This document shows, piece after piece, positions 17,283 through 32,056 of a DNA stretch of 64,000 nucleotides (position 1 is the first letter of the stretch; every line of letters begins with the position of its first letter). Source of the DNA: a virus (taxonomy: Duplodnaviria > Caudoviricetes). A program made the translations under genes and the position numbers. Location of the stretch: IMG/VR virus record IMGVR_UViG_3300010051_000550, positions 15,667-79,666 of that record. One strand, given 5' to 3'. A model generated the notes under the pieces. The model was not told the origin of the DNA, searched no databases, and saw nothing but the letters and a program-made list of their open reading frames with translations.

Positions 17283-17656
17283 TGGCTCTTTGCAGATGGT
17301 CTGATTACCGATGTGACTTGTATATCTATGAGAGCGACTGGGGCATCGAGTGCCATGTGGCCTGGCGGCGGCGCGTGGGCGAACCGGAGCCGCCGCTTAT
17401 CCCCGTGGATGGGGACGATGAGGCGTGGCTGGCGTGGCAAAAGGCATTTGTGGTTTATGAAGAGCAACTGCTGGCGGCGCCGCTGGAGCGGATCGGCCTG
17501 CCCCACGACGGAGAGAGCCGCACCTTCGGCGAGTGGGGCGAGTTGCTGGCGTATGTGACGGGGTTGAAGGAGTTGGGGTATGGGGTGCCGGATTGGGTGA
17601 TTGAGGAGATCAAGGAGGAGGTTGCCGCGTCCGGTTTGTTGGAAAGCGAGGAGTGA
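17279..17656 (+). CDS. Hypothetical protein
   Basis: Coupled start; last gene of the accessory operon. Confidence 0.7.
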   Translation: MMALCRWSDYRCDLYIYESDWGIECHVAWRRRVGEPEPPLIPVDGDDEAWLAWQKAFVVYEEQLLAAPLERIGLPHDGESRTFGEWGELLAYVTGLKELGYGVPDWVIEEIKEEVAASGLLESEE

Positions 17657-17708
17657 ACATGTGTTCACGCGGGGCGTATTGACGCGCGGCCGGGGCGCGT
17701 GATAACCT
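17653..17708 (+). promoter_or_regulatory. Palindromic box GTGAACATGTGTTCAC plus head-operon promoter
   Basis: GAAC-N4-GTTC ends 12 nt before TTGACG; extended -10 TGnTAACCT. Confidence 0.75.
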
Positions 17709-17782
17709 ATCAGCACAGCGATAAATCATATATTCTGAGCGCGGCGCAACGGCCGCGAACAGCGACGTAAAACGTGTGAATG

Positions 17783-17813
17783 ACGCCGCTCCCAATTCGG
17801 GAGCGGCGTTTTT
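17783..17813 (+). terminator. Leader terminator upstream of the head operon
   Basis: ACGCCGCTCCC...GGGAGCGGCGT followed by a T run, ~15 nt before the ATG. Confidence 0.75.
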
Positions 17814-17828
17814 GTTTTCGGAGGTGGT

Positions 17829-19253
17829 ATGGCAGTTCTGACGAAGACCGGCCTGAGCGCCAATCGAGCTGAGCAAGAACCGGATGTTTCCTACATCACG
17901 CGACGGGCGCGGCTGCGGCCGGCGTCGTTTAGTGAGGTTCGGGAAGCGGGCTTGCTGGACGGGCGGGCGAACGGGGAAGGGGAGCAAGATGACACTCGGT
18001 ACTGGTTCACGGCCGAGATTTCGAGCGAGGCGCTGGATTCGTATTTCACGCACATGTCGAGCGGCACTCTGCGCAACTTCGCGCGGAACGCGGCCGAGGG
18101 TGTGTCGCTGCTGGACAGCCACGACGGTCACAAGCTAGGCGTGGGGTACTCGGCCGGCGGGCGATATGAAGAGGAGAACGGCCAGGGACGCGCGTTGGGC
18201 ATCTTCTACATTGTGCGCGGCATCCGGTTCGGCGGCAAGCATTCTTATGCCAGCACCGACGACCTGATCACCGCCATCGAGAACGGGGTTGTGCGCGACG
18301 TGTCGGTCGGGTTCTACGGCGGCCGGTGGGTTTGCGACTTGTGCCATCAGCCTTATTTCGGCTACGGCTCGGCCTGCAATCACTGGGCGGGGATCGAGTA
18401 TGAGATTGAGCGCGACGGCAAGATGGTGCGCGAGGTGTGCACGGTCCAGATCGACGATGCGCACCTGTCGGAGGTGTCGCTGGTGTTCGATGGGGCGACG
18501 CCGGGGGCGATGATTCTGAAGGCGGAGCAGGCGGCGGAAGACGGCCGTCTGACGCCGGACATGACACGCCAACTGGAGATGCAGTACCGGATCAAGTTGC
18601 CGGGACCGGTTGCCGATGGCCGGACATTGAACGTTCGGGGCGGCTTTGTGAGCACCACCGGCAACGCGGCCGACATCAGGATCGTCGCAGGCGCGGCGGT
18701 CAATGGAGCGAGAGTGATGGAAGAGGAAGAAGTTATCGAGACTGTGGAAGAGGTAGTTGAAGAGCCGGCCGCCGACGCGGCCGTCGACCAGGCAGGGGCG
18801 GATGAGGCTCGCGCGGAACTGGACGCGGCCCGCCAGGCGCTGACCGAGATTCGGGATGTGGTGGTCGACTCCGGCGCGCCGGAGGGCACCACGCTGGCCG
18901 TGTCGGTGCGCTGGCTGAATGAGCAGCTGGCGAAGGTCACTGAGGAGCGCGACCGTGCGCTGGGGCAGGTGGCCGAGTTGCAGCCGCTGGCCGACCAGGG
19001 GCGTGAGTATCGCTCGCGCCTGGTGGAGGAGGCGGTAGCTGAGGGCGTGCGCGCCATGAGCGCGTCGTTCCCGGAGGAGACGTATCGGGCGATGCTGGAA
19101 AACGCGCCGCTGGAGCACATTCGCAAGGTGAAGGAGACGTTCGCGGCGCAGGCGGCCGAACGGTTCCCAGGCGGGCGGCAGACGCGCGATGAAACGAGTA
19201 ACGGCAAGAAGCCGAAGCCGGAAGTGCCGGCGGCGGCCTACGGGGTGAAGTAA
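17829..19253 (+). CDS. Prohead protease fused to a scaffold
   Basis: LLDSHD...VRDVSVGF...LSEVSLVFDGA protease-like motifs; acidic coiled-coil C-terminus. Confidence 0.8.
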   Translation: MAVLTKTGLSANRAEQEPDVSYITRRARLRPASFSEVREAGLLDGRANGEGEQDDTRYWFTAEISSEALDSYFTHMSSGTLRNFARNAAEGVSLLDSHDGHKLGVGYSAGGRYEEENGQGRALGIFYIVRGIRFGGKHSYASTDDLITAIENGVVRDVSVGFYGGRWVCDLCHQPYFGYGSACNHWAGIEYEIERDGKMVREVCTVQIDDAHLSEVSLVFDGATPGAMILKAEQAAEDGRLTPDMTRQLEMQYRIKLPGPVADGRTLNVRGGFVSTTGNAADIRIVAGAAVNGARVMEEEEVIETVEEVVEEPAADAAVDQAGADEARAELDAARQALTEIRDVVVDSGAPEGTTLAVSVRWLNEQLAKVTEERDRALGQVAELQPLADQGREYRSRLVEEAVAEGVRAMSASFPEETYRAMLENAPLEHIRKVKETFAAQAAERFPGGRQTRDETSNGKKPKPEVPAAAYGVK

Positions 19254-19297
19254 CCCTGAATTCTCAGTAGATGAACAGCAGGACGGAGGACTAGGAC

Positions 19298-19723
19298 ATG
19301 AGCGAGCGGACGAATGTCAGCAACATCGGCGTGGGCGGGGTCTATCGCACGTACAAGATCGACGACTCGACGATCACTTACGATGCGACGAAGCCCGGCG
19401 GCTCGGAGCAGGTGGGGCTGGCGGTAACTTTATCGGCAGCGGATACGGTGGCGCTGACGGCCGACGCGGACGAGGTGATCGGGAAGCTGATCCTCGTCGA
19501 GTCGGACGACAAGTGCACGGTGATGACCGACGGCACGATGGCGCTGCCGGGCGGAGATGGGGCGGCCTTGACGCTGGGCACGAAGATCGTGGGCGACCTG
19601 GGGGCGGGCAACGCCAAGGGGTACATCCGGTCGGCGGCTTCGGGGCAGGCGGCCGAGTTGCTGGTGGCGCGCGGGCGAATTGAGAATGCCGGCACGGCTT
19701 CGGCCGTGGTGGTGACGCTGTAG
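19298..19723 (+). CDS. Head decoration/cement protein
   Basis: Small beta-rich protein between scaffold and major capsid. Confidence 0.65.
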   Translation: MSERTNVSNIGVGGVYRTYKIDDSTITYDATKPGGSEQVGLAVTLSAADTVALTADADEVIGKLILVESDDKCTVMTDGTMALPGGDGAALTLGTKIVGDLGAGNAKGYIRSAASGQAAELLVARGRIENAGTASAVVVTL

Positions 19724-19749
19724 GGCAAGAAGGGAGGAGAGAGAAGACG

Positions 19750-20961
19750 ATGAGCACGATTGAGACGAAAGCACGCGCCGGCGATCTGCTGGGGCAGATG
19801 GGCCTGAGCATGTACCGGCGCGCCTACGATCAGGGCATGTCCCTGTCGGCGCTGCTGGAGAAGGAAGACCCGTCGGGTGATTACCGCGACGGGACCGACG
19901 CCTTCCAGCGCATTTTGATGGCGGCCGATCTTCGCACGGAGACGCTGCCGCACTACGGGGTGCAGGCGAGCACCTTCGGCGAGTTCCTGAGCGACGAGCG
20001 GACGCGGGCCTTGATTCCCGAATGGCTGCTGCGCGAGTGGCGCAGTGTGCAGACGGGGCGGCCGTTTTCGACCCGCGCCATGTACACCAGCGCCGATGCC
20101 GCCGCCGGATCGTGGGAGCGGCCGTATGCCGAGGCGAACACGCCGCGCGTGGATCAGCAGATCGCGCCGGCCATTCCGTTGAGCCAGCTGGTCGCCATTA
20201 CGACCCCGATCAACTCGGCCGAGTATCGCTCCTACTATCTGGAGAACGACGAGAGCCAGACCAGCATGGTGCGCGTGGCTGAGGGTGCCGAGGTTCCGCG
20301 CGTGAAGCTGACCGGCAGCCAGCACGTGATCAACCTGCTGAAGTACGGCCGCGCGCTCGAGGCCTCCTACGAGGTGTTGAAGCGCCAGCGTGTGGATCGC
20401 CTGGCGCTGACGGTGCGCATGATGGCGGCTCAGGCTGAGGCGGACAAGGTTGGGGCGATCATCGACGTGATGGTCAACGGCGACGGCAACAACAACGCGC
20501 CGACGACTCACGCGCTGACCACTCTGGACTCGACCGCGACGCCCGGCACGCTGTCCCTGAAGGCCTGGCTGGCTTTCAAGATTAAGTTCGGCAATCCGTA
20601 TGCCATCACCGGCGCGCTGGCGCAGGAGGCTGTGGCGCTGCAGATGCTTCTGTTGAACACCGGCTCGGCCAACACGCCGCTGGTGGCTGTGCAGCAGCCG
20701 AGCGGCTTCGGCGCGTTCACGCAGATCAATCCGGGCTTGCGCGACAGCGTGGCGCTGGGCTGGACGGCCGATGCGCCGTCGCTGAAGATCGTCGGTTTCG
20801 ACCGCCGCTTCGCCATCGAGCGCGTGGTGGACGTGGGCATGACCATCACCGAGATCGAGCGGTTCATCACTCGTCAGGTGGAAGTGCTGGTTGTGACCGA
20901 AGCCGAAGGGTACGCCATCATCGACAAGAACGCGATCAACGTTCTGAATGTGAACGCCTAG
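19750..20961 (+). CDS. Major capsid protein (HK97 fold)
   Basis: 403 aa; VAEGAEVP...KYGRALEASYE...DRL pattern; position in the head module. Confidence 0.85.
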   Translation: MSTIETKARAGDLLGQMGLSMYRRAYDQGMSLSALLEKEDPSGDYRDGTDAFQRILMAADLRTETLPHYGVQASTFGEFLSDERTRALIPEWLLREWRSVQTGRPFSTRAMYTSADAAAGSWERPYAEANTPRVDQQIAPAIPLSQLVAITTPINSAEYRSYYLENDESQTSMVRVAEGAEVPRVKLTGSQHVINLLKYGRALEASYEVLKRQRVDRLALTVRMMAAQAEADKVGAIIDVMVNGDGNNNAPTTHALTTLDSTATPGTLSLKAWLAFKIKFGNPYAITGALAQEAVALQMLLLNTGSANTPLVAVQQPSGFGAFTQINPGLRDSVALGWTADAPSLKIVGFDRRFAIERVVDVGMTITEIERFITRQVEVLVVTEAEGYAIIDKNAINVLNVNA

Positions 20962-20977
20962 CGTTGAGGAGGCGGAT

Positions 20978-21385
20978 GTGGGCACGACTAATTTCGATGC
21001 GGTAGTGGCGGCGAGTGTGGCGGCGGCTATCGGCTTTCCGACGGCGGCGCGGACGGCGACGGCCGCGCCCGGCGGGACGACCGGTGTGATCGCCGACGCC
21101 GGCATGCTGCAGTTTGTGACGGTGGCCAGCGACAACGCGGCCAAGGTTATCACGCTACCGACGCCGACGCCGGGCACAATCGTCATCTTGCGCAATGGCG
21201 CTACAGGTTACGAATTGCGCTCCAGCGACCCGGCGACAGTGGCCATCAATGGCGGAGCCGGCGCGGACGCGGAGTCGGCTATCGCCGCCAATGCGATGGT
21301 GATCGCCGTCTGTACGTCGGCCACGACCTGGCAGGCTATCAGTCTGGCCGGGACGACGCTGGCGGCGGTGGAGGCTGCGGCGTAA
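20978..21385 (+). CDS. Head-associated structural protein
   Basis: GGAGG RBS; beta-rich; follows the capsid gene. Confidence 0.55.
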   Translation: MGTTNFDAVVAASVAAAIGFPTAARTATAAPGGTTGVIADAGMLQFVTVASDNAAKVITLPTPTPGTIVILRNGATGYELRSSDPATVAINGGAGADAESAIAANAMVIAVCTSATTWQAISLAGTTLAAVEAAA

Positions 21386-21786
21386 TGGATATCATCCGCG
21401 TGCGGGTGGCCGAGCCGGAGAGCAATCGGGTGGCGTTGTGGGAGCGCCACCCGGCCCATCCACACGGCGAGGTGTGGCTGGCCGGCGCTGGGGAGTACGA
21501 CGTTGCGGCTACTCCGGCGGTGATGTCGCGGCTACGGAACGGCACCCTTGTAAAGGTGGACACCGTAGCCGCGCCCGCGCCGGAGCCGGTGTCGACCGGC
21601 GAGCGGCCGAATCCGGAGGATGACCCGCAGGTCGAGAGGAGCGTGCCGGGCAAACAAAAGGCGCGCGGCCGGAAGAGCGGCGTGCATCCCGACGAGGAGC
21701 CGAGCGAGGAGGCGTCAGTCATCACTACTGTTGCAGGTGACGGCGCGCCGTCGAGCCGGCCGCAGCGCAAGGCGCGAGGGAGTTAG
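21385..21786 (+). CDS. Hypothetical head-tail region protein
   Basis: TAATG coupling. Confidence 0.6.
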   Translation: MDIIRVRVAEPESNRVALWERHPAHPHGEVWLAGAGEYDVAATPAVMSRLRNGTLVKVDTVAAPAPEPVSTGERPNPEDDPQVERSVPGKQKARGRKSGVHPDEEPSEEASVITTVAGDGAPSSRPQRKARGS

Positions 21787-22212
21787 ATGGCGATCCTGAC
21801 CTCGGCGGATTACCCGGCGATTCGGGCGGCTTTGGACGTTGGTCTCTCGGATGGGCAGCTGTCGGACGCGACGATTGGGCAGGACATCTTCGTCGGCGCG
21901 GCCGAGGCGGAACTGCTGCGGCGGGTCCCGGACGCGGCCAGTATGGTCGGCGAGGACCTGAAGCGGGTGAAGCGGGCGCTGGTGTGGTTGACGGCAGCCC
22001 TGCTGGCGCACTCGGTGGTGCGGATTACCAGTTTGAGCGTTCAGACGCGGGATCTGTCGTACAGCCGGCAGACGTTCGACCCGGACGAGAAGGCGGCCGA
22101 GTTGCGCGCGCGGGCGGAGACGGAGATCGCGGCGTTGGTCGCGTCGGAAACGACGGAGGCGACGATGCCGACGATGTTCACGCTGGCGGGCAGCGGCTGG
22201 AGCCGGAGGTGA
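21787..22212 (+). CDS. Head-tail adaptor
   Basis: Size, helical pattern and position. Confidence 0.6.
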   Translation: MAILTSADYPAIRAALDVGLSDGQLSDATIGQDIFVGAAEAELLRRVPDAASMVGEDLKRVKRALVWLTAALLAHSVVRITSLSVQTRDLSYSRQTFDPDEKAAELRARAETEIAALVASETTEATMPTMFTLAGSGWSRR

Positions 22213-22219
22213 GTGGGGC

Positions 22220-22609
22220 GTGATCAGCATCGAGATTTCATCTCTGGATGATGTGGCCGCCGCGCTGGCGCAGCTCGAGGATTTGCCGGCGTATCTGAAC
22301 ACGCCGTTCGTGGAGTGGGGCGAGGCCACGCTAATGAACAATCTGTGGGGCATGAAGAACTATGCCCCACCCCCGCCGAACTCGACGTATCAGCGCACGG
22401 GCCAGCTGGGTACGGACTGGGATGTTCACGGGATCGCCGATAGCCAGGTTTTGTTTGTGAACTGGCACGAGGCGGCCGAGTTGGTGGTGGGCGAGAATCA
22501 GGCCTGGATGCATGAGGGGCGTTGGTGGAAGGCCATCGACCGGATTGAGGAGCAGGCTGAGAAGGCGATTTCGATGCTGATTGAGCGCCTTAACAAGTGG
22601 CCGAACTAG
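22220..22609 (+). CDS. Neck protein (HK97 gp10-like)
   Basis: Y.RTGQL..W motif; position. Confidence 0.55.
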   Translation: MISIEISSLDDVAAALAQLEDLPAYLNTPFVEWGEATLMNNLWGMKNYAPPPPNSTYQRTGQLGTDWDVHGIADSQVLFVNWHEAAELVVGENQAWMHEGRWWKAIDRIEEQAEKAISMLIERLNKWPN

Positions 22610-22612
22610 GCT

Positions 22613-23131
22613 ATGGCAGACTACACCGTTTCGGACGCGCTGGTGGCGTTGAAAGAGATTCTGATGACGGCTTCGGCCGTTGGGCAGTCGCCTCTGGCCG
22701 GGGGGTATGTGCTGCCGGATGACGCGGCGACCGGCGTTTTGCCGCAAGTGCTGCCGCTGCCGTGCATCACGGTCAGCGAGGTTTACAACACGCCCAATGA
22801 CTGGACTCGGAAGGCCGAGGGCACCGGACTGAATACGTGGAAGGCGGAGGTGCTGCTGTTCGTCGCTCCGGGGCCGCTGACGGTGTTGAACGCGGCGACG
22901 GCGGCGGCGATGCTGAAGACGCGGAACTGGGCCAAGGCGTTCGCGGATCGGCTGAATGCGAACCAGTCGCTGAATGGGAAGGCGCTGGTCATTGGCGAGC
23001 ACACGGGCGGCAACCGGAGGCTCTTTCGCTACGGGATCGGCCACGTCTTTCTGGATGCGACGAAGGAGTATTGGGGGATGCGGCTGGAGTTGGCGATTCA
23101 GCAGCGGCATACGCAGCAGATGAGCGCATAG
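22613..23131 (+). CDS. Tail terminator-like protein
   Basis: Position before the tail tube gene. Confidence 0.55.
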   Translation: MADYTVSDALVALKEILMTASAVGQSPLAGGYVLPDDAATGVLPQVLPLPCITVSEVYNTPNDWTRKAEGTGLNTWKAEVLLFVAPGPLTVLNAATAAAMLKTRNWAKAFADRLNANQSLNGKALVIGEHTGGNRRLFRYGIGHVFLDATKEYWGMRLELAIQQRHTQQMSA

Positions 23132-23142
23132 GAGAGAAGGAA

Positions 23143-23400
23143 ATGGAAGGGAAGGATTTGTGGATTTACATCGGCAAGGGGGCCTTCATTGACGGCATTC
23201 CGGCCCGGAATCTCACTCAGCATGATTGGGACAGGCTGAACGAGGATGAGCGGTCGGCCGTGGAGAACCAGGGGTTGTATCGACGGGCGGCGCGGCCGAA
23301 GGTCGAGGAAGTGAAGCAGCCGGAGAAGCAGCCGGAGAAAGAGGCGGGTAAGAACGCGGCCGCAGAGCGTGCCGTCGAGGTCAAGGGGAAAAAGGAGTAG
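23143..23400 (+). CDS. Small phage protein
   Basis: YIGKGAFIDGIPARNLT..W motif; RBS. Confidence 0.65.
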   Translation: MEGKDLWIYIGKGAFIDGIPARNLTQHDWDRLNEDERSAVENQGLYRRAARPKVEEVKQPEKQPEKEAGKNAAAERAVEVKGKKE

Positions 23401-23406
23401 TGAGAG

Positions 23407-24624
23407 ATGGCCGAGATTCCATTTGAGGCATTGTTATTGGGACTGGAGAGCACGTCGGGAACCGGAGTCGCGCCGACGCATTATGCCAGTATGGTCGGCT
23501 CGTTGAAGCCGGTGAAGGAGCGGTACCGGCCGGACGAGGCCAGGGGCACGCTGGTTGAGGCGTATCGCTCGAAGGTAGCTCGTGAGTGGAGCGAGTGGTC
23601 GGGCGAGGGGCCGCTGGATGTGTACCTGCTGCCGGTTCTGCTGAATATGTGCGTGACCGGCAACATGACGAGCCAGCCGACGACGCCCGGCGGCGCGACG
23701 AACGCGCGGCTGTGGACGTTCAAGCCGACGATCAACGCCAATGACCTGAAGACGGCGACGATCTTCTGGGGCGACCGGAACGTGCAGATGTTCCGTGGCC
23801 GCTTCGGAACGCTGGACGAGCTGACGATTACGGCCGATGCCTCGGGCACGGATGGCTCGAAGATGTCGGCCAGCGGCCGGACGCAGATTCAGGATTACGA
23901 AGAGTACGACGTCTCAGCGATCTCGAAGGACAACCCGGCCGAGGTGACCATCGGCACGCACTCGCTTCTGGCGGGCGATAAGGTGCGAATCGTCGGCGGT
24001 GAGATGGTGGAGCTGCACGATCTGGTGTTCACTGTGGCGAACCCGACGGGCACGACCGTTGAACTGGCGGGGATCGATTCGACCGGATATACGACCTACG
24101 TGGGGGGCGGCACGCTGGAGAAGGTGGCGCCGGCGTTCCCGTCCATCCTGACCGCGCCGCTGATCTCGGGGCCGGGGATGCAGATGTGGCTGGATACGTC
24201 CTCGGCGATTGGGTCGACGGAGATTTCGGGCCGGCTGATTTCGGCCGAGCACGTGATTCCGGTCAACTACGGGTACAAGCACCTCGCCGTCGGCCCGGCC
24301 GGCGCGAAGACGTACTCGCGGGTCGGCCGCAACAAGCGCTCGATCACGACTCGCGTGACGCTGGAACTGTTCGACATGGATCAGTATAAGTTGTTCCAGA
24401 ACGAGACAAACACCAAGCTGCGAATCCGGCACAACGGAGACTTGATCGAGGCCGGCTTCTACCACTACGTGGAAGTGGACACCTACGGGCCGTTGAACTT
24501 CACGGATTGGGGCGAGTTGGAAGGGACGAACCGGACGCTGACGCTGGAAATACAGAGCCAATATGACGCGACGCTGGGGGCGGACTTCAGCGTGAAGGTG
24601 CAGAACGACCGGGCGACGCTTTAG
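23407..24624 (+). CDS. Major tail tube protein with an inserted E1-FCCH-like beta domain
   Basis: Position; internal segment AISKDNPAEVT..HSLLAGDKVRI..EMVELHD..FTV...ELAGIDSTGY..Y.GGG. Confidence 0.8.
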   Translation: MAEIPFEALLLGLESTSGTGVAPTHYASMVGSLKPVKERYRPDEARGTLVEAYRSKVAREWSEWSGEGPLDVYLLPVLLNMCVTGNMTSQPTTPGGATNARLWTFKPTINANDLKTATIFWGDRNVQMFRGRFGTLDELTITADASGTDGSKMSASGRTQIQDYEEYDVSAISKDNPAEVTIGTHSLLAGDKVRIVGGEMVELHDLVFTVANPTGTTVELAGIDSTGYTTYVGGGTLEKVAPAFPSILTAPLISGPGMQMWLDTSSAIGSTEISGRLISAEHVIPVNYGYKHLAVGPAGAKTYSRVGRNKRSITTRVTLELFDMDQYKLFQNETNTKLRIRHNGDLIEAGFYHYVEVDTYGPLNFTDWGELEGTNRTLTLEIQSQYDATLGADFSVKVQNDRATL

Positions 24625-24648
24625 TACGATTGCAATACATTCCGTGAG

Positions 24649-24687
24649 GGAAGAGTATGGAAAGGCCTCGAATTCGAGGCCTTTTTG
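24649..24687. terminator. GGAAGAGTATGGAAA plus palindromic terminator, copy 1
   Basis: AAAGGCCTCGAATTCGAGGCCTTT; related copy at 25956-25996. Confidence 0.85.
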
Positions 24688-24760
24688 TTGAGATTGTACG
24701 ATGATCAGAATGTCGATGAGCATCATTGATTAAGTTCTGGATGGACTATATCAATTATAA

Positions 24761-25189
24761 TTGACAGATCGAGTTCAAATGATCTATTATCCGGTTCCCT
24801 CAATCGAAATGAGCGCCCGGCAACATCGAGGGCGGGTGTCGAAAGTGCTAACTGGGCAAACAACCAATATGAGCGAAGAAAACAATGCCATCGAATTTAA
24901 TATAGTCTGGGAATCGGATAGACACCTCCAGACGATCTATGCCAATCACTTCTATATCACTCACGCTGGAGACGAGTTCTATTTGATGTTTGGCGAGCTA
25001 CCGTCTCCAAATATTGCGAATATGGCCCCGGACAAAATAAGAGACTATCTTGGCGACAGTCTTGAGATCAGGCCCTTGGTACGGCTGGCTATCGCGCCTC
25101 AAACGATGCTCAGGATAGCCGAGGCCATACAAACGAATGTGTCCAATTACATCGGGAAAAATATCGGTGGTAAGGACGATGAAGAATGA
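24761..25189 (+). CDS. DUF3467-like protein (probable start ATG ~24869)
   Basis: IYANHFYITHAGDEFYLMFG...VRLAIAPQTM..IAEAI..NV..Y. Confidence 0.65.
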   Translation: MTDRVQMIYYPVPSIEMSARQHRGRVSKVLTGQTTNMSEENNAIEFNIVWESDRHLQTIYANHFYITHAGDEFYLMFGELPSPNIANMAPDKIRDYLGDSLEIRPLVRLAIAPQTMLRIAEAIQTNVSNYIGKNIGGKDDEE

Positions 25190-25635
25190 GCACCCTAACT
25201 CTAAGAGTTGATCCATTTTCCGGAACCGGCCTAAATAGAGGACATCAGAAGATCGGCGATCTGCCAGCAATCTATCGCCGCAAGACAAATACAACGGCCC
25301 GCCCTAAGGTTACTCTGAGCGATGAGTCCAACTCGTCAACCGATACCGATTCAGGGGTCACATATCTTGTAGGACAAGGCGGGATCGACGGTGAATGGAA
25401 GCTCTTACAACCTCTCTCCATCGTCATAGAAATTGACGAGGACGGCGATTACATTGTGTCCGACAAAGTGTTCTCTAGATACGGTGTAGGTGCAACTGTG
25501 CTGGAGGCATTTAAGGACTTCATATCCGATCTAACCACGTACTACACGATTGTTGCTGAGTCCGCGGCGCACAATCCGGCCGCGGCAGCGTTGTTAGAGG
25601 AGATTCAACAGTACCTTCAACGAGCAGATGGCTAA
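25186..25635 (+). CDS. HicB-like antitoxin
   Basis: SIVIEIDEDGDYIVSD...YGVGATVLEAFKDF..L..YY, a partial RNase H fold pattern. Confidence 0.7.
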   Translation: MSTLTLRVDPFSGTGLNRGHQKIGDLPAIYRRKTNTTARPKVTLSDESNSSTDTDSGVTYLVGQGGIDGEWKLLQPLSIVIEIDEDGDYIVSDKVFSRYGVGATVLEAFKDFISDLTTYYTIVAESAAHNPAAAALLEEIQQYLQRADG

Positions 25636-25646
25636 ATACGTCTCAA

Positions 25647-25943
25647 ATGTTTACATCGAAACAGATTTTACGCACTTTGCGCACCAAGTTTAAATTTACC
25701 GACGTTAAAGGAAAGTATGCAGATATATACGTTACGCTTGAACTCCCTGGAGTTCGGCCAGTTGTAACAAAGGTTTCACATCCTAAGTCCCAAAGAAAAA
25801 CTGTCGGGAAACCCCTTGAGAACCTGATGGCAAAGCAGTTGCGCGTTGAGACACAGTACTTCCGTAACATGATCGGATGCACGCGCAGTCAGGAAGAGTA
25901 TTATGAGCGACTCAGGTCAGAGCAGTTCCCGCCTGTCGAGTAG
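25647..25943 (+). CDS. HicA-like toxin
   Basis: Basic 98-aa protein; TKVSH...LENLMAKQL.V....F..MIGC..S.EEYY pattern. Confidence 0.62.
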   Translation: MFTSKQILRTLRTKFKFTDVKGKYADIYVTLELPGVRPVVTKVSHPKSQRKTVGKPLENLMAKQLRVETQYFRNMIGCTRSQEEYYERLRSEQFPPVE

Positions 25944-25955
25944 GTTCCCTGCGAA

Positions 25956-25996
25956 GGAAGAGTATGGAAAAGCCCCTCGAAATCGAGGGGCTTCTT
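25956..25996. terminator. GGAAGAGTATGGAAA plus terminator, copy 2
   Basis: AAGCCCCTCGAAATCGAGGGGCTT. Confidence 0.85.
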
Positions 25997-26137
25997 GTTT
26001 ATTGGGGGCTAACCCACACCCCTCACGCCCGTGAGAGCAACCCATCGGCCGCAGGTTTCCGGTTCATCTGACGGTGTCTACCGTACCTGGGCGTTTAACG
26101 ACTCGATCTATGTAGTATCGCTTTGACGAGTTATTAA

Positions 26138-29100
26138 TCATGTTTTTGATAATCTCTGAAGTACGCGTTTTATGGGCGGGTTCTTGATGTTACGAGGGAT
26201 AATGGGCAAATCACCTTTTTGTAAGGCAGCAATATCCGGATCGTTTTCTCCTATCTCCCATGCGGACCGAATAATCAACTCATGCTTTCCAATTGCATAA
26301 TCCCAATCCGGATCAGGAAACTCTGTTTCCGAGATGTATTGTGCAGGTAGGAGGACATACCTTCCCACACTTTTATAGTTCTTCAAAAAACCATCTAGAT
26401 TATCGGAGTTCTGTGGCTCCATTGTATGAACCCGACTAACCAGATGTAATTGGTTGCCCTTTGATGGCCTAATAGCATTAAGGTTAGTAGAAATCATCAT
26501 TCTGTAATTAGCTTTTTTTCTTCTGTTAATCCCCCTAATAATCGAGATTCGCAACTGATCCTCTTCGTCAACACTGCCAAATCTGTCTATCCACTTTCTG
26601 AAAATATGTTTGGCTGGCTCTATATTCTCGAAGCCAAGGCCCAAAATCAGTACATCTTCAGGCAAAAAACCGAAACTGATTGCGGTCCATTTTGCCCTAT
26701 CCCAAAGCGGAATGTTAATAAGCGAAATTATCTTGCGATCTTTGTGTTTCAAATTATCGATTGCGAATGAGGACTCAGGAATTTCGCCTTTTCCTAATTC
26801 CAGAGTCCATTCCTCTCTTTCATCTATGCCCTCTGCTTCTAAGTGATGATCCCACGGGAGACTACGTTTCATGGGATAATCGATATCGCTTTTATCATCT
26901 TTCCAATCGGAAAGGCGGAATCTAGGCGAACTTCCGATCATATTCACAACCGCAATGTCAATGTCTGTAATAAGCATTGCTCGACCAATGCTATGCTCGC
27001 TTTTGGCTAGTCGCTCCGTGAATGAATCAGTATCAACAACCACACCAATTTGAAGAGTTGTGTGAAGTAGAAAGTCCAGTAGCCATGCACTGAAGTCGCC
27101 CCTCTCATCCTGATTAGTCCGTCTTAATGTCCGGGGATGCCTAATGCTTATGGTTTGGCCAGTAGCCGTTTCATCGGTTTCAAACTTTGGCAAGCCGGCA
27201 AGGAAATCAGATGGTTCAATCGAAATATGCAATTCAGAGCGATACGGCAATATTACACTTTCAAGGCTCGTTGCTAATAATGCTTCAAGCGCCCCTAAGA
27301 TCGTTTCGGCCAAATATATCGAGGTATGGTCATTGAATGCGTGAATTGACACCTCGCAACCGAGTACATTCGAGCGAAGAGTAACCTTCTTGCTCAAGAG
27401 CAAGTCAGGTTGGTACAACAAGTCGCGGCTGGCAGGTTGATTACGCCACCTTATGAATAAGTCACAAATTTCTTCAGGGCTGTCGTTCTCAGAAATGATA
27501 TTCTCTGAACGCAGGTATTCCTCATATCCCAGTACATACAACAGCGCCATCCGTGAGTAGGAAAGTTCCGCTCGCTCCAAGACTGACGGTAAGAAGTTGA
27601 GCCATTTTGAATCCCATATGCTTAGCCTCAAGAACTGTATCGCTAAGACCTGATCCTGAATAGTCCGTTCATTTATGAACTTCTCTTGTTTCTCCTCATT
27701 TAGGAGCAAGGATTTTGCCAACAATGAAGCTACTTCTATCCATTCAAGAACGTGAGGGATGCGACCCAGTTGTAACTCCAACCAAATTATCCTTTGGGTG
27801 AGGGCAAGTGTCTGCGGCAAGAGTTTTCCATATTTATGGTATGCTGACCAAGAAGAGTTGATAGCAATAAGGAGATTTGAACGTGCTGCCCATAATAATC
27901 CAACTCTTTCATACGCAGCTCCACAGGCAGCAACTGACATAATCCACTCCTCCATATGCTCCTCCACGGCCAATTCCTGTTGGGACTTTCCGAGGAGCCT
28001 GATAGCATCGTAATTCTTACCTGCTAGCAATTTTTGATACCCACGTGTAAGATGCAATTCTCCGGCTACGCTATCACCTGTTCTACGCTTAATGAATTCC
28101 TCGACCTCTTCCATCAATTCATCGTACTTAGCGTGAGACGCCAGAATCATTCCTAGCTCTTGAATGATATGAATTGTCGAGATAACAGGGTACTCGGCCA
28201 GCCCTTGGCTCTTCTTTAAAATACTTCCAAGCTGAGTGAGGATACCATTCACTCCTCGTCCCTTTGCCAACGCCTCGGCTAGTTCCATGAGTAATTTGAT
28301 TGTGCGTGCATGATGTGCATTATTCGGACGTTGGGAGCTCATTGCCAGGCGGTTGAGTTCGGCTTTAGCTGTCCTAGTACGTTTCGATAATTTTCTCCTG
28401 CTTGTACCGGGCCGGCCCCGCTGGACTTCAACATGAAGAAGTTGCCATAGATTGATCATCAGTTCGATATCAGTTGTCTGATTACTGCCTACTGCCAACT
28501 CCTCGACTCGTTCATACAAATTGTCAAACAACTCAATATCGCCGTACCACCAATATGCTGTCCAAGCTCTATTGTAAGCAATACGTAACATCTGCTGCCG
28601 ATGTCCAACTTTCATGGCAACATGCTCAGCACGTTCGAACCTAGCTTCGATCTCCATCCGAGAAAGTTCAAGCCCACGCGCAAGCAGTGCCACTTGCAAG
28701 CAGTCTTCCGCGAGTTGATACCTAACCCCCTTGTATCTCTCAGGGTCATTGATGCGCTCCTCGAGTTCCTTCATTTCTGCTTGACGTTTTGTGTCCTGTG
28801 ATCCCAACTCCCTCTTCGATAATTCACCGAAGCCTTCTATATGGAGCGATTCAATTGCAAGTCGTAACCGCTCGTGCTCGAAGACGCACTTTACGATCCA
28901 ATTTCGATCAAGTACCCGAACATCTATGCTGAACTCTCGGGACAAGGCATCTTCAACTTCAGCTCGGGTGCTGTCCTTTACAAATTGATTTGTTATGAAA
29001 TAAACAAGCTTGTAGCTTCGATTAGTCTTGGCGATTTTCTCGACGTCAGACCGAACCTTTGATCGCCAGTCTTTCTTGGCGCTGAAGGCAAATGCCCACC

Positions 29101-29476
29101 GTTCTTGACTAGCTTCCCTACCAACCCCCTCATACCACCCTAGCGCAAGCTCGTCCGCAACCGGGTAAGTCTCGGTATCCACTTTACTGTCCCCTCCACC
29201 AGTCGACCCGGTTTGAGGTATCAGGTTTGGACAAATTTCCTTTTCTGCCAATCTTCTGCAAAAGTGTTCGAATTCAATTTCTTGTTTTCGATGAGTAAGG
29301 GTTTCTAAGTGGTATTCGAAGCTCACTTGTGTCAATTGAAGTGTAGTTGAGACCCTAGTATCAGAAAAAAGTTCGGGTCGCCGAGCGCGCATGAAGTCTG
29401 AGGGACGCCACTGCGATCCCTGTTGGTGTTCAACATCATGCGATGATGCTTCTTCAGGTAAACTGGTTTTCGACAT
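26138..29476 (-). CDS. Low-GC 1112-aa protein: N-terminal PD-(D/E)xK nuclease-like domain plus TPR-like helical repeats; defence candidate
   Basis: EFEHFCRRL...GSTGGGDSKVD...AFSAKKDW..KV.SD; long helical region; no P-loop seen; GC far below the flanks. Confidence 0.7.
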   Translation of the reverse strand: MSKTSLPEEASSHDVEHQQGSQWRPSDFMRARRPELFSDTRVSTTLQLTQVSFEYHLETLTHRKQEIEFEHFCRRLAEKEICPNLIPQTGSTGGGDSKVDTETYPVADELALGWYEGVGREASQERWAFAFSAKKDWRSKVRSDVEKIAKTNRSYKLVYFITNQFVKDSTRAEVEDALSREFSIDVRVLDRNWIVKCVFEHERLRLAIESLHIEGFGELSKRELGSQDTKRQAEMKELEERINDPERYKGVRYQLAEDCLQVALLARGLELSRMEIEARFERAEHVAMKVGHRQQMLRIAYNRAWTAYWWYGDIELFDNLYERVEELAVGSNQTTDIELMINLWQLLHVEVQRGRPGTSRRKLSKRTRTAKAELNRLAMSSQRPNNAHHARTIKLLMELAEALAKGRGVNGILTQLGSILKKSQGLAEYPVISTIHIIQELGMILASHAKYDELMEEVEEFIKRRTGDSVAGELHLTRGYQKLLAGKNYDAIRLLGKSQQELAVEEHMEEWIMSVAACGAAYERVGLLWAARSNLLIAINSSWSAYHKYGKLLPQTLALTQRIIWLELQLGRIPHVLEWIEVASLLAKSLLLNEEKQEKFINERTIQDQVLAIQFLRLSIWDSKWLNFLPSVLERAELSYSRMALLYVLGYEEYLRSENIISENDSPEEICDLFIRWRNQPASRDLLYQPDLLLSKKVTLRSNVLGCEVSIHAFNDHTSIYLAETILGALEALLATSLESVILPYRSELHISIEPSDFLAGLPKFETDETATGQTISIRHPRTLRRTNQDERGDFSAWLLDFLLHTTLQIGVVVDTDSFTERLAKSEHSIGRAMLITDIDIAVVNMIGSSPRFRLSDWKDDKSDIDYPMKRSLPWDHHLEAEGIDEREEWTLELGKGEIPESSFAIDNLKHKDRKIISLINIPLWDRAKWTAISFGFLPEDVLILGLGFENIEPAKHIFRKWIDRFGSVDEEDQLRISIIRGINRRKKANYRMMISTNLNAIRPSKGNQLHLVSRVHTMEPQNSDNLDGFLKNYKSVGRYVLLPAQYISETEFPDPDWDYAIGKHELIIRSAWEIGENDPDIAALQKGDLPIIPRNIKNPPIKRVLQRLSKT

Positions 29477-29527
29477 ATTAGATCAGCCGCACTGCACACG
29501 CCTATGGGAGCATCGCCGGGGTGCTTT

Positions 29528-29543
29528 ATGTTGGCGCGCAAAC
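29528..29543. promoter_or_regulatory. Near-palindrome ATGTTGGCGCGCAAAC, copy 2 of 3
   Basis: Reverse complement is identical to 9484-9499. Confidence 0.7.
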
Positions 29544-29550
29544 GGATTTG

Positions 29551-30435
29551 TTAGTTCGTTTCGAAGCCGTGCGCAGCCAGGAAGTAGCGGCTGCAACTGG
29601 CGGTGTTACTAAACAGGTTGACGCTGAAGGGTAGCTCGGCGTTAGCGTCGACCTCCCCTTGGTCTGTGAAGGAACTGGGGGCAGCGATGGGCACCAGGTC
29701 GTCGTCGAAGCAGATGGCAGCGCCCTGAACAAGGTCCAGCGGGGCGTCGTTGGAGTTCAGCAGTATGCCGACGATATTGTTGCCGACGATATTGTGCTCA
29801 AGGACTTCGAGGTCGCGACGGGCAAGAAAGACGCTAGGGGCGTCTTGGGCTGTAACGCGGTAGTCGATGGTGGCGCCGTCCAGGTCAGTGTCCATGAACC
29901 CGACTGTACCGAAGGCGACGCTTCCAGGGGGCACGTAGGATGGGGCGAAGAGAAGCCCGGAGCCGGTGCCTAGGACGCCGCCGGCTTCGTCACGGGCGGT
30001 GGCAGAGATTTCGACGTTGTAGACGGGGGCGTCGACGTTGTTGCGGACGACAACGGAGATGCTACCGAATTCACTGGGCTGACCTTGGGCAATCACGGAG
30101 AGGCCGGGACCACCAGCGGGCAGATCGTCGGGGGTTATGTTGGCTGTGGCGAGGTAGGAAGTGGGTTCGATTGCGGCCGCGGGCGCTGGGGTAGGAGGCG
30201 GCGGTGCCGTCGGGGCGACTTCAACGAGGCGGGTGACCTCCACCTCAATCTCGACGAGGCGGGTGACTTCTACTTCAATCTCAACCAAGCGGGTAATTTC
30301 GATTTGCTCGGCTTGGGGGGCGGCCGTGGGCTGTCCGCCGCAGGCGCTAAGAAGATGGGTAGCGAGAGCGATTAGGGCAATGCGTTTCAATGGGAGCCTC
30401 CTGTTTGTATCGGATTGGCTCGGCCACGGGAACAC
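29551..30435 (-). CDS. Lipoprotein with EVTRLVE repeats and FxLYD-like Ig domains
   Basis: Lipobox LSAC; (IE)VEVTRLVE x3; VVVRNN...VYNVEISAT.RD..G.VLG. Confidence 0.78.
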   Translation of the reverse strand: MFPWPSQSDTNRRLPLKRIALIALATHLLSACGGQPTAAPQAEQIEITRLVEIEVEVTRLVEIEVEVTRLVEVAPTAPPPPTPAPAAAIEPTSYLATANITPDDLPAGGPGLSVIAQGQPSEFGSISVVVRNNVDAPVYNVEISATARDEAGGVLGTGSGLLFAPSYVPPGSVAFGTVGFMDTDLDGATIDYRVTAQDAPSVFLARRDLEVLEHNIVGNNIVGILLNSNDAPLDLVQGAAICFDDDLVPIAAPSSFTDQGEVDANAELPFSVNLFSNTASCSRYFLAAHGFETN

Positions 30436-30704
30436 GCGGCGGAGTATGAGGCGGACTATAAATGATAGGGTCTATCTGGTCAATCGTTTTGGCGAGGCGC
30501 GGCCGATGTGGATGGCGTGGGCTTGGTGGGCAGGGCGGTCCCGGCTGGATGTGGTTACCATGTACACTAGAGACGCGCGGGTTTTCATTCGGCCGGGGGA
30601 TGAGATCTGGCGGAATAGCGGGGATTGCGAGTTATAATGTGCGGAAGGGGTTGAAGTGTCGCGGTTTTGGTGGAGTTTGTTTTGTGCAAAAGGAGTGAAA
30701 CAAA

Positions 30705-30929
30705 ATGACCGATGCATTATTGAGGTTGATTATGCTTGACGTAGAGGAAGGGATCAGGAAGAGAAGCTATTCGGGATACACGGATGAAGCAGTTCTCTCG
30801 CATAAGCAATATCTACTCGACAGCGGGCTGGCAAAGGGAAACCGGCAACGCGGCGATGATACCGTGAAATCTGTTATTCTGACCGGCTTGACCGAACGTG
30901 GAAAAGAGCTTCTGAGCACGTTGGGTTGA
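30705..30929 (+). CDS. Small winged-helix protein, DUF2513-like
   Basis: LLRLIML...YTDEAV..H..YL.DSGL..G....LT.LT..G.E.L. Confidence 0.55.
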   Translation: MTDALLRLIMLDVEEGIRKRSYSGYTDEAVLSHKQYLLDSGLAKGNRQRGDDTVKSVILTGLTERGKELLSTLG

Positions 30930-31018
30930 TGTTAACAACGGTCGCTGTCAGCACACTTTCTGTGATAGATTTCTTGACAAGGAGTGGATTGCTTTCAGTC
31001 GATTATGGGAATTAAGAG

Positions 31019-31052
31019 GAGGCCCCTGAGCGATCAGGGGTCTCTCCGTTTT
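31019..31052. terminator. Hairpin terminator after the winged-helix gene
   Basis: GAGGCCCCTGA-GCGA-TCAGGGGTCTC then TCCGTTTT. Confidence 0.55.
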
Positions 31053-31157
31053 AGCGGACGGGGAGACCAAGGTCGGGCCGGACTTCTTGGATCATCTGCA
31101 CAATTACTGTTCGAAGTCGGGGTAGATGTTGAAGAGGTCGGCTCTCGAAGACTTCCT

Positions 31158-31212
31158 GTGAACATCTGTTCACATCGGCCGCGTGTACAGGAGTGCTCGA
31201 GTGACCTATAAT
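31158..31212 (+). promoter_or_regulatory. Palindromic box GTGAACATCTGTTCAC plus tail-operon promoter
   Basis: GAAC-N4-GTTC ends 12 nt before TGTACA-17-TATAAT. Confidence 0.78.
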
Positions 31213-31273
31213 ATTAGCAATTGAATTTGCCTCGCGGAGAACCCGCGAGTAGCGACGTGAAACGACCGGACAC

Positions 31274-31313
31274 ACGCCGCGCTGACATGTAGTAGTCAGC
31301 GCGGCGTTTTTTA
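31274..31313 (+). terminator. Leader terminator upstream of the tail chaperone gene
   Basis: ACGCCGCGCTGAC...GTCAGCGCGGCGT followed by a T run. Confidence 0.8.
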
Positions 31314-31340
31314 TTTCCGGCAAAAGGGAGAAACAAAACG

Positions 31341-32014: not shown

Positions 32015-32056
32015 GCGCAAGGCCAGGGAGGCCAGAGCGAAGGCCGGACGATAGTT

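What the first reader, a model, noticed from the sequence alone, without database searches (positions are those of the whole stretch)
17653..31340. Conserved operator-promoter-hairpin-motif-terminator leader before both structural operons
Seen at 17653-17828 and 31158-31340, in the same order: GTGAACA-N2-TGTTCAC; a 12-nt gap from the GTTC to -35; -10; a GC hairpin; AGCGACGT(A/G)AAACG (17761, 31251); then an intrinsic terminator starting ACGCCGC and ending GCGGCGT-T(n) just before the first gene. The rest of the two sequences has diverged, so these elements look selected. Established: lambda N/Q and HK022 put use RNA or DNA elements to read through leader terminators. Inference: an undescribed antitermination or attenuation switch for late genes, possibly SOS-linked.
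Basis: partly seen in the sequence, partly recalled or inferred. Interest (0 to 1): 0.8.

Follow-up and report, generated by a model that had tools for sequence, protein, structure and literature searches.

The report
Late-gene promoter–terminator switch, Chloroflexota phage
Both virion-gene operons of this temperate Chloroflexota phage sit behind the same conserved control cassette: a DNA-damage-type (LexA) operator, a promoter, and a short leader RNA whose strong terminator can be disarmed by an alternative hairpin. This RNA element is in no RNA-family database and recurs in dozens of uncultured relatives.

Summary
Copies at 17653-17828 and 31158-31340 share every listed element in the same order. 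The cassette also recurs before the head and tail modules of about 36 distinct uncultured Chloroflexota phages whose neighbouring protein is only 45-79% identical.

It has two separable layers:
1. **DNA layer.** The palindrome GTGAACA-N2-TGTTCAC matches the operators found upstream of host lexA genes in related MAGs. It lies 11-12, 21-23 or 33 nt from the -35, always on one face of the helix, which suggests an activator site. The phage encodes a 97-aa LexA DNA-binding domain with no protease domain, like the late activator gp6 of phage GIL01. This gene co-occurs with the palindrome on all three contigs long enough to show both.
2. **RNA layer.** A hairpin (P1) and a strong intrinsic terminator are both supported by covariation. 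Between them the invariant GCGACGUG can pair with CACGCCGC, the 5' arm of the terminator, forming a weak antiterminator with a conserved A·C mismatch. Two relatives keep this RNA module inside an operon with no promoter.

Rfam has no match, and no antiterminator protein was recognised. Regulated readthrough is inferred, not shown. The scan has noted a similar SOS-operator-plus-terminator design on other phage DNA. I rate it a new variant of a known kind, of moderate to high interest.

The parts
17653..17668 (+). Copy A: SOS-box-type palindrome GTGAACA-TG-TGTTCAC, centred about -54.5 from the predicted start
   Evidence: Same core as the host lexA operators.
17679..17708 (+). Copy A promoter: TTGACG-18 nt-TAACCT (weak -10)
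   Evidence: Aligned with the promoters of relatives. Not called by the strict consensus scan.
17740..17757 (+). Copy A hairpin P1: CGCGGC / 6-nt loop / GCCGCG
   Evidence: Covariation across 36 elements.
17761..17774 (+). Copy A invariant motif AGCGACGTAAAACG. GCGACGU (17762-17768) is the 5' arm of the proposed antiterminator.
17782..17819 (+). Copy A intrinsic terminator with U-tract. Its 5' arm ACGCCGC (17783-17789) doubles as the 3' arm of the antiterminator.
31158..31173 (+). Copy B: palindrome GTGAACA-TC-TGTTCAC, centred about -53.5
31184..31212 (+). Copy B promoter: TGTACA-17 nt-TATAAT
31231..31249 (+). Copy B hairpin P1: CTCGCGG / AGAAC / CCGCGAG
31251..31264 (+). Copy B invariant motif AGCGACGTGAAACG. 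GCGACGUG (31252-31259) is the 5' arm of the antiterminator.
   Evidence: P1 plus this antiterminator is the minimum-energy fold of the truncated leader.
31273..31316 (+). Copy B: CACGCCGC (31273-31280, 3' arm of the antiterminator) leading into the intrinsic terminator 31274-31307 and its U-tract
1957..2250 (+). Gene for a 97-aa stand-alone LexA DNA-binding domain, the candidate protein that binds the palindromes
   Evidence: Pfam PF01726, E 1.5e-7, above cut-off. TIGR00498 N-terminal part. All PDB matches are LexA DNA-binding domains. Same slot between TerS and TerL in L186 and L192.
17829..24624 (+). Head and tail-tube operon behind copy A: 474-aa head-module protein, 141-aa virion protein, major capsid protein 19750-20961, major tail protein 23407-24624
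   Evidence: PHROG hits. Synteny in relatives.
31341..41259 (+). Start of the tail operon behind copy B: 141-aa and 60-aa chaperone-slot genes, tape measure protein 32057-39391, Dit-like protein 39391-41259
   Evidence: PhageMin_Tail Pfam hits on homologues.

Best explanation
This is a two-layer control cassette that restarts and gates late (virion) transcription after accessory-gene islands.

**Layer 1, DNA.** A LexA-family operator (GAACA-N2-TGTTC core) lies on a fixed face of the helix upstream of a sigma-70-type promoter. It is most likely bound by the phage's own truncated LexA homologue, which has the DNA-binding domain and no cleavage domain. That protein would act as an upstream (class I-like) activator, as gp6 does at the late promoter of phage GIL01. 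Host LexA may compete for the same box, which would tie late expression to the SOS state.

**Layer 2, RNA.** The leader of about 100 nt folds into hairpin P1 and a strong intrinsic terminator that ends 10-30 nt before the first gene. By default, transcripts stop there, including readthrough from upstream accessory genes. The invariant GCGACGUG right after P1 can pair with CACGCCGC, the 5' arm of the terminator. This gives a weak antiterminator hairpin with a conserved A·C mismatch and an A-rich loop. Because it is 3 to 6 times less stable than the terminator, I infer that a trans-acting factor, probably a still-unidentified phage or host protein, stabilises it to allow readthrough. This is the logic of the BglG/SacY RAT-terminator attenuators.

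**Shown:** the anatomy, its conservation, covariation in P1 and the terminator, the helical phasing of the operator, the co-occurrence with the LexA homologue, and the possibility of the alternative pairing.

**Inferred:** who binds the operator, that it activates, that the antiterminator forms in vivo, and that a factor controls it.
For: **Conservation**
- The cassette is found before the head and/or tail modules in every close relative fetched.
- There are 36 distinct elements in metagenomes and MAGs.
- It was found in few of the Chloroflexota genomes sampled, 2 of 151 and 5 of 151, so it is not a general host element.

**RNA structure**
- P1 plus terminator: 90.9% of cells paired, 14 pairs with changes on both sides, 0 of 500 shuffles as good.
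- All 30 sequences examined have a stable P1, at -7.8 to -21.6 kcal/mol.
- The full leaders fold with z-scores of -3.5 and -6.1.

**Antiterminator**
- 8 pairs, 83% paired.
- The part of the terminator that would pair with both partners (columns 93-98) is frozen. The upper stem, which has only one partner, covaries freely. This is the pattern expected for mutually exclusive pairings.
- C92 lies outside the terminator stem, yet it is C in 28 of 28 sequences where its antiterminator partner is G.
- In L028 the terminator has shifted register, but CACGCCGC and its complementarity to the motif persist.
- Divergent members change in step: L187 C-G to G-C, L190 A·C to G-C, L013 U-A to A-U.
- The antiterminator is the minimum-energy fold of the nascent transcript in 26 of 36 sequences. 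It is worth only -3.6 to -7 kcal/mol, against -18 to -38 for the terminator.

**Modularity**
- L027B and L197 keep P1, motif and terminator after the tail-tube gene with no promoter or palindrome.

**Operator**
- Host lexA genes in three related MAGs carry CGAACA-N2-TGTTCG upstream.
- Spacing from the box to the -35 falls into classes of 11-12 (16 elements), 21-23 (about 17) and 33 nt (2). At least three unrelated spacer sequences occur in the 23-nt class.

**Truncated LexA**
- Family hits, and about 30 protein clusters of 67-125 aa.
- It lies in the same gene slot, and co-occurs with palindrome plus leader, on all three contigs that span both regions: the window, G006/L186+L033, and L192.

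**Precedent**
- GIL01 gp6 is a truncated LexA homologue that activates the late promoter P3 from a palindrome (PMC6182141).

**Need for readthrough**
- No other promoter lies between the terminator and the first gene.
- The two leader terminators are the two strongest in the 40 kb scanned.
Against: - There are no expression or termination data.
- Covariation for the antiterminator helix rests on single-sequence events, because both arms are almost invariant.
- ACGCCGC...GCGGCGU-U(n) also occurs as an ordinary host terminator stem (L198), so part of the invariance could reflect a generally good terminator base.
- No antiterminator-type protein (Q, N, NusG/KOW, CAT_RBD, ANTAR) was recognised among about 70 ORFs scanned.
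- Some elements have a promoter but no palindrome (L027A, L029, L030, L058). The operator is therefore dispensable for the RNA layer.
- The recognition helix of the phage LexA homologue differs from that of host LexA, with 23-27% identity over the domain. Its actual site is untested.
- The promoters have good -35 elements. That is not the classical profile of a class I-activated promoter.
Confidence: 0.45

Rival explanations
1. Constitutive, tuned attenuator and insulator. No trans factor exists. The weak decoy hairpin lets a fixed fraction of polymerases pass a strong terminator. This sets the ratio of upstream to downstream products (for example tail tube versus tape measure) and damps readthrough from accessory islands. 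All regulation lies in the promoter.
For: Promoterless copies sit directly after the major tail protein gene in L027 and L197, exactly where a stoichiometry-setting terminator is expected. No antiterminator protein was recognised. A three-way pairing constraint alone can freeze the motif and the lower stem without any protein.
Against: The antiterminator is so much weaker than the terminator (-4 to -7 against -18 to -38 kcal/mol) that unaided readthrough should be very low for operons encoding abundant capsid proteins. The conserved A·C mismatch (34 of 36) and the conserved A-rich loop positions (AAAC...GA.A) are not needed for simple tuning. A strong promoter followed at once by a strong terminator is wasteful unless it is conditional.
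Confidence: 0.25
2. The palindrome is simply a host LexA operator. Late promoters are repressed by host LexA in the lysogen and released by the SOS response, and the truncated phage LexA plays no part there.
For: The core is identical to the boxes upstream of host lexA. Five elements even carry the host-type CGAAC flank. LexA-controlled phage promoters are well known, for example GIL01 P1 and P3 (PMC6182141).
Against: The box lies at about -54, -65 or -75. It never overlaps the -35 or -10, so it cannot occlude the polymerase. The spacing jumps by whole helical turns, with unrelated spacer sequences, which indicates a face-specific contact typical of activators. Most boxes have T/A rather than C/G flanks. 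The truncated LexA gene co-occurs with the box in 3 of 3 informative contigs.
Confidence: 0.2
3. The invariant motif is a loading or pause site for processive antitermination. It would work like ops/RfaH, LoaP leader hairpins, lambda nut or HK022 put, altering the polymerase itself instead of sequestering the terminator arm.
For: It is an invariant 12-14-nt element in the leader of long operons. It ends in CGUG, which resembles the consensus pause (G-10, Y-1, G+1; own knowledge), and P1 lies at pause-hairpin distance. The layout of two adjacent hairpins recalls put.
Against: No strong internal terminators occur in either operon that would call for processivity. No NusG/KOW, N or Q family hit was found. 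The sequence is unlike ops beyond GGCG. The changes in L187, L190 and L013 follow base-pairing with the terminator arm, which a pure protein-recognition site does not predict.
Confidence: 0.12
4. The leaders are genes for about 100-nt trans-acting small RNAs. They would have a hairpin, a single-stranded seed and a terminator, and be made from their own promoter or from a 3' UTR. Their position before the late genes would be secondary.
For: The anatomy is that of a typical small RNA. The promoterless copies could be 3'-UTR-derived. Another first-stage note (e1-5868285) proposed a trans-acting small RNA in this stretch.
Against: The element is always co-oriented with, and 10-30 nt upstream of, the first gene of a late module that has no promoter of its own. 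No shared complementary target near start codons was found in the window: 8-10-mer matches are scattered at about the chance rate.
Confidence: 0.07

Closest known systems
GIL01 (Betatectivirus) late promoter P3 with gp6, a truncated LexA homologue, and host LexA (Fornelos et al. 2018, PMC6182141)
   Same: A temperate phage encodes a stand-alone LexA DNA-binding domain. A palindromic site lies at the late promoter that drives the virion genes. LexA-family logic links late expression to the SOS response.
   Different: The gp6 site is GaCACAC-GTGTGaC, centred at -43.5 (class II), and is distinct from the host LexA boxes, which overlap the promoter. Here there is a single box of the host SOS type, 10-30 bp further upstream, in phased positions. 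No gp7-like co-repressor or promoter-overlapping boxes were seen. GIL01 P3 has no leader terminator. The hosts are Bacillus and Chloroflexota, and the viruses are unrelated.
Lambdoid late control: PR', Q-binding element, sigma-dependent pause, 6S leader RNA, tR' (own knowledge)
   Same: A promoter is followed by a short leader and a strong intrinsic terminator directly before the late genes. Readthrough is obligatory for virion production.
   Different: No Q family protein was found. The DNA site is upstream of the -35 at variable phased distances, not between the -35 and -10. The leader carries an RNA alternative pairing that overlaps the terminator, which Q systems lack. The RNA module also works as a unit inside operons without the promoter.
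Protein-dependent RAT/terminator attenuators of the BglG/SacY/LicT family (own knowledge)
   Same: An imperfect, thermodynamically weak antiterminator hairpin with conserved non-canonical positions overlaps the 5' arm of a much stronger terminator. Termination is the default.
   Different: There is no CAT/PRD protein and no RAT consensus. An extra upstream hairpin P1 is present. The context is a phage late operon, not a sugar-utilisation operon.
HK022 put RNAs (own knowledge)
   Same: A cis-acting phage leader RNA of two adjacent stem-loops placed before terminators.
   Different: put acts on the polymerase and does not pair with the terminator. No sequence or Rfam similarity was found, and a put-like processive effect is not required here because there are no strong internal terminators.

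Membership tests
GIL01 gp6-type late activation by a truncated LexA homologue | Phage-encoded protein consisting only of the LexA winged-helix DNA-binding domain | tested here: met
   97 aa. PF01726 E 1.5e-7, above cut-off. TIGR00498 residues 6-70 only. PDB matches are all LexA DNA-binding domains. Family of 67-125-aa proteins.
GIL01 gp6-type late activation by a truncated LexA homologue | Palindromic binding site at the late promoter, positioned to contact RNA polymerase | tested here: inconclusive
   A palindrome is present and helically phased at about -54, -65 or -75. It is not at -43.5 and has a different sequence from the gp6 site. Binding is untested.
GIL01 gp6-type late activation by a truncated LexA homologue | Host LexA boxes overlapping the same promoter, plus a gp7-like co-repressor | tested here: not met
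   Only one GAAC-N4-GTTC box per cassette, and none overlaps the -35 or -10. No search for gp7 was made.
GIL01 gp6-type late activation by a truncated LexA homologue | Protein binds the site and activates transcription | not testable with these tools
   Needs EMSA or reporter assays.
Lambdoid Q-dependent late control | Q antiterminator gene (Q-lambda, Q21 or Q82 families) | tested here: not met
   No such Pfam, PHROG or NCBIfam hit among about 70 ORFs of the record. A few small ORFs were not scanned.
Lambdoid Q-dependent late control | Promoter, short leader and intrinsic terminator directly before the late genes | tested here: met
Lambdoid Q-dependent late control | Q-binding element within or next to the core promoter, and a -10-like pause element in the initially transcribed region | tested here: inconclusive
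   The only conserved DNA site is upstream of the -35 at variable distance. A conserved CAATTGAAT box lies just after the -10, but it is kept in the promoterless copies too.
RAT/terminator attenuators (BglG/SacY/LicT) | Weak imperfect antiterminator hairpin overlapping the 5' arm of the terminator | tested here: met
RAT/terminator attenuators (BglG/SacY/LicT) | CAT RNA-binding domain and PRD-containing antiterminator protein | tested here: not met
   No CAT_RBD or PRD hit in the scanned ORFs.
ANTAR-regulated leaders | Two hairpins with conserved hexaloops (A1, G4), and an ANTAR protein | tested here: not met
   P1 loops vary from 3 to 10 nt with no conserved sequence. No ANTAR hit.
RfaH/ops or LoaP-type recruitment | ops consensus GGCGGTAGnnTG or a LoaP leader hairpin, and a NusG paralogue | tested here: not met
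   The motif shares only GGCG and the terminal GTG with ops (direct reading). No NusG/KOW hit in the scanned ORFs.
Any Rfam 15 family | Match at the gathering score | tested here: not met
   No match in the window. Permissive scans of both copies gave only weak, discordant terminator-like matches.

The most novel reading that the evidence does not exclude
The leader is a new class of cis-regulatory RNA specific to late operons of Chloroflexota siphoviruses. Hairpin P1 is followed by an antiterminator hairpin with a conserved A·C mismatch and an A-rich internal loop. This hairpin would be the binding pocket for an unknown phage protein or small molecule. Together with a LexA-homologue activator on a host-type SOS box, it forms an AND gate (DNA damage plus a phage-made signal) for virion production. 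The RNA module is portable and can be placed inside operons.
Probability: 0.35. Interest if true: 0.75.

Novelty: new variant of a known kind. Interest (0 to 1): 0.6.

Why it matters
Almost nothing is known about gene regulation in phages of Chloroflexota, a major and mostly uncultured phylum of soils, sediments and wastewater systems.

This cassette gives a concrete, testable model for their lysis decision. It suggests that the unusual GIL01 solution, a LexA fragment turned activator, arose or spread far beyond Bacillus tectiviruses. It also adds an unnamed, well-delimited RNA element of about 100 nt, with 36 or more diverse members, that could be submitted as a new RNA family.

The element marks the starts of late operons, so it is also a practical annotation landmark for these phages in metagenomes. 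If a dedicated RNA-binding antiterminator exists, it belongs to no recognised family.

Tried and rejected
- **Single-protein searches of IMG/VR.** Searches with the 474-aa and 141-aa proteins found nothing. Relatives came from the large protein database and contig look-ups instead.
- **Pattern scan of metagenomes.** The scan returned mostly chance hits in GC-rich coding DNA. I kept only hits with a U-tract and a hairpin.
- **Mini-hairpin ACGU-AAA-ACGU inside the motif.** It is present in some copies but broken wherever the motif ends in AAACA. Rejected as a conserved feature.
- **Pairing of the motif's AAAC with the U-tract.** This is trivial A-U complementarity and was not pursued.
- **Leader peptide.** An AUG exists only in the winA-type copies and is out of frame. 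Rejected.
- **boxA/nut resemblance.** Weak and not tested against host rrn leaders.
- **The 232-aa HTH protein next to the LexA homologue.** I considered it as a candidate regulator, but its protein-atlas neighbours are viral HTH_23/Terminase_5-like proteins. It is probably a small terminase.
- **The 177-aa double-HTH, sigma-region-4-like protein at 16749-17282.** It is not conserved in relatives.
- **Gene-content comparison.** It found no non-structural protein shared by all element-bearing loci. The loci are short, so this says little.
- **A wider IMG/VR search with the truncated-LexA alignment.** It returned only the record already known.
- **Weak model hits L160, L161 and L198-L200.** These are ordinary terminators and were not counted.

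Full report
**1. What is there**

- a 16-bp palindrome (17653-17668; 31158-31173);
- a 12-nt gap to a -35 hexamer;
- a -10 hexamer: A is TTGACG-18-TAACCT, B is TGTACA-17-TATAAT;
- a GC-rich hairpin;
- AGCGACGT(A/G)AAACG (17761-17774; 31251-31264);
- a terminator ACGCCGC...GCGGCGU-U(n) (17782-17810; 31274-31307).

The terminators end 10-30 nt before the start codons at 17829 and 31341. Each motif occurs exactly twice in the window and in the whole 79.7-kb provirus record. Rfam has no match.

**2. Setting**

The window is a temperate siphovirus-like prophage.
- The part of the record before the window carries an integrase, a replication protein O-like gene, ParB-like proteins and methylases.
- The window then carries a small terminase, a 97-aa LexA-type protein, an HTH protein, a probable large terminase, the portal and head-morphogenesis genes. 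An 8-kb block of accessory genes follows, including MazG and HTH proteins.
- Copy A precedes a 474-aa head-module protein, the major capsid protein and the major tail protein.
- A 6.7-kb island of low third-position GC content follows, with minus-strand genes.
- Copy B precedes the two chaperone-slot genes, the 2444-aa tape measure protein and the rest of the tail.

Both copies therefore restart structural transcription after an accessory island.

**3. Conservation**

Homologues of the 474-aa protein at 53-79% identity led to contigs that all carry the same cassette before the head module. Where the contig reaches far enough, they also carry it before the tail module. A pattern scan added IMG/VR and metagenome instances.

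A covariance model finds only copies A and B in the window. It collects 36 distinct elements, including divergent ones in L013, L028, L187 and L190. Among Chloroflexota genomes sampled it hits 2 of 151 (phylum sample) and 5 of 151 (class sample), so it was not found as a general host element.

**4. RNA layer**

- On the 36-sequence alignment, P1 plus terminator pair in 90.9% of cells. Fourteen pairs show changes on both sides, and no shuffle or slid control comes close.
- Every sequence examined has a stable P1, with varied stem sequence and loop.
- The full leaders fold much better than shuffles, with z-scores of -3.5 and -6.1.

The key refinement concerns the invariant motif.
- GCGACGUG is complementary to CACGCCGC, the base of the terminator's 5' arm, apart from an A·C mismatch that is kept in 34 of 36 sequences.
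- The terminator positions shared with this alternative helix are frozen, while the upper terminator stem covaries freely.
- C92 lies outside the terminator stem but is always C when its antiterminator partner is G.
- In L028 the terminator has shifted register, yet CACGCCGC and the motif persist.
- The few divergent members change in step with the pairing: C-G to G-C in L187, A·C to G-C in L190, and U-A to A-U in L013.
- The antiterminator is the minimum-energy fold of the nascent RNA in 26 of 36 cases. It is worth only -3.6 to -7 kcal/mol, against -18 to -38 for the terminator.

Termination should therefore be the default, and efficient readthrough should need help. The loop keeps AAAC...GA.A, which pairing alone does not explain.

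The covariation evidence for this helix is thin. It rests on single sequences, because both arms barely vary. A host terminator with the same stem base exists (L198).

**5. Modularity**

In L027 and L197 the RNA module lies directly after the tail-tube gene with no promoter and no palindrome. The module there comprises a CAATTGA box, P1, the motif and the terminator. L027A, L029, L030 and L058 have a promoter but no palindrome. The palindrome, the promoter and the RNA module are thus three separable parts, and the RNA module is the constant one.

**6. DNA layer**

- Host lexA genes in three related MAGs carry CGAACA-N2-TGTTCG 70-100 nt upstream. The palindrome is therefore of the host SOS-box type.
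- Its distance to the -35 falls into classes of 11-12, 21-23 and 33 nt. These place its centre near -54, -65 and -75.
- The 23-nt class includes at least three unrelated spacer sequences, one of them an AT-rich UP-like element.
- Whole-turn jumps and a lack of overlap with the core promoter argue for a face-specific activator contact rather than occlusion.

The phage's 97-aa protein is a LexA DNA-binding domain without the cleavage and dimerisation domain. It is 23-27% identical to the host LexA N-terminal domains, and its recognition helix is related but different. It belongs to a family of about 30 clusters of 67-125-aa proteins.

This gene occupies the same slot between the terminase genes in L186 and L192. 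All three contigs that span both regions carry palindrome plus leader. L027, which lacks palindromes, has no such gene directly upstream of its large terminase gene, but that contig is truncated.

The direct precedent is GIL01 gp6, a truncated LexA homologue that activates the late promoter P3 from a palindrome centred at -43.5 (PMC6182141).

**7. Mechanism and rivals**

My best reading, at confidence about 0.45, is a two-lock switch:
1. a LexA-family operator used by the phage's truncated LexA as an upstream activator, possibly in competition with host LexA;
2. a leader attenuator whose weak antiterminator needs a trans factor.

The rivals are:
- a constitutive tuned attenuator and insulator with no factor (0.25), favoured by the promoterless copies and by the lack of any recognisable antiterminator protein;
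- plain host-LexA repression (0.2), disfavoured by the position and phasing of the box;
- an ops-, nut- or put-like loading site (0.12), disfavoured by the absence of internal terminators and by the pairing-consistent changes;
- a trans-acting small RNA (0.07), for which no shared target was found.

**8. Novelty**

The general design is known from lambdoid PR'-tR' control and from GIL01 P3.

New here are:
- the specific RNA family;
- its alternative pairing with a conserved mismatch;
- its portability;
- its coupling to a host-type SOS box in phased upstream positions, together with a truncated LexA, in Chloroflexota phages.

I class it as a new variant of a known kind, with interest 0.6.

Noticed in passing
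L027:13081-13194 and L197:1100-1227: Promoterless copies of the RNA module (CAATTGA box, P1, motif, terminator) lie directly after the major tail protein stop codon and before the chaperone gene. They are in two different prophages that have no accessory island there.
   Followed up: partly
window 17720-17735 and 31219-31228; columns 8-18 of A6: A conserved A/T-rich box (consensus CAATTGAATA) lies between the -10 and P1. It is kept even in the promoterless copies. Its role (5' end of the RNA, a pause element, or an RNase site) is unexplained.
   Followed up: no
L128:200-408: This leader carries a second, upstream copy of GACGTGAAACGCAGACACACG before the regular P1-motif-terminator, so part of the module is duplicated in tandem. 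The distance from the -10 to the motif is 92 nt, against 40-54 nt elsewhere.
   Followed up: no
window 24761-25993: The accessory island after the tail-tube gene opens with the best consensus promoter in the region (TTGACA-18-TATTAT at 24761-24790). It ends with the third-strongest terminator (25970-25993). It holds a DUF3467 gene and two small genes of low third-position GC content.
   Followed up: no
window 26138-29476 (minus strand): A 1112-aa minus-strand ORF of low third-position GC content has no Pfam hit. It lies in the hotspot between the two late operons. Relatives carry restriction-modification, AAA_15/21, HNH or transposase genes at the same place.
   Followed up: no
window 44951-45634: A 227-aa protein in the distal tail/lysis region ends in an EAD7 effector-associated domain (PF19960, E 2e-19).
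   Followed up: no
L196:3424-4899 (record bases before the window): A sulfatase with a twin-arginine signal lies among the early and replication genes. An integrase sits at the very start of the record.
   Followed up: no
L162, L163, L165 (host lexA loci): Each host lexA gene has a second GAAC-N4-GTTC box just downstream, in front of the next gene. This suggests a small SOS gene cluster.
   Followed up: no
G004 contigs C16, C188, C196, C145 and others: One Anaerolineae MAG holds 41 copies of TGAACT(A/T)(A/T)AGTTCA in arrays, at regular spacings of roughly 68-180 nt depending on the contig. They are probably a repeat array unrelated to LexA.
   Followed up: no
L190:30-110: Upstream of this divergent element lie two further terminator-like hairpins. 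One ends in GCGGCGTTTCAT, resembling the element's own 3' arm.
   Followed up: no
window 52650-52925: A Lar-like restriction-alleviation protein (PF14354, E 4e-8) follows the 1068-aa protein whose homologues in relatives carry a GH25 domain.
   Followed up: no
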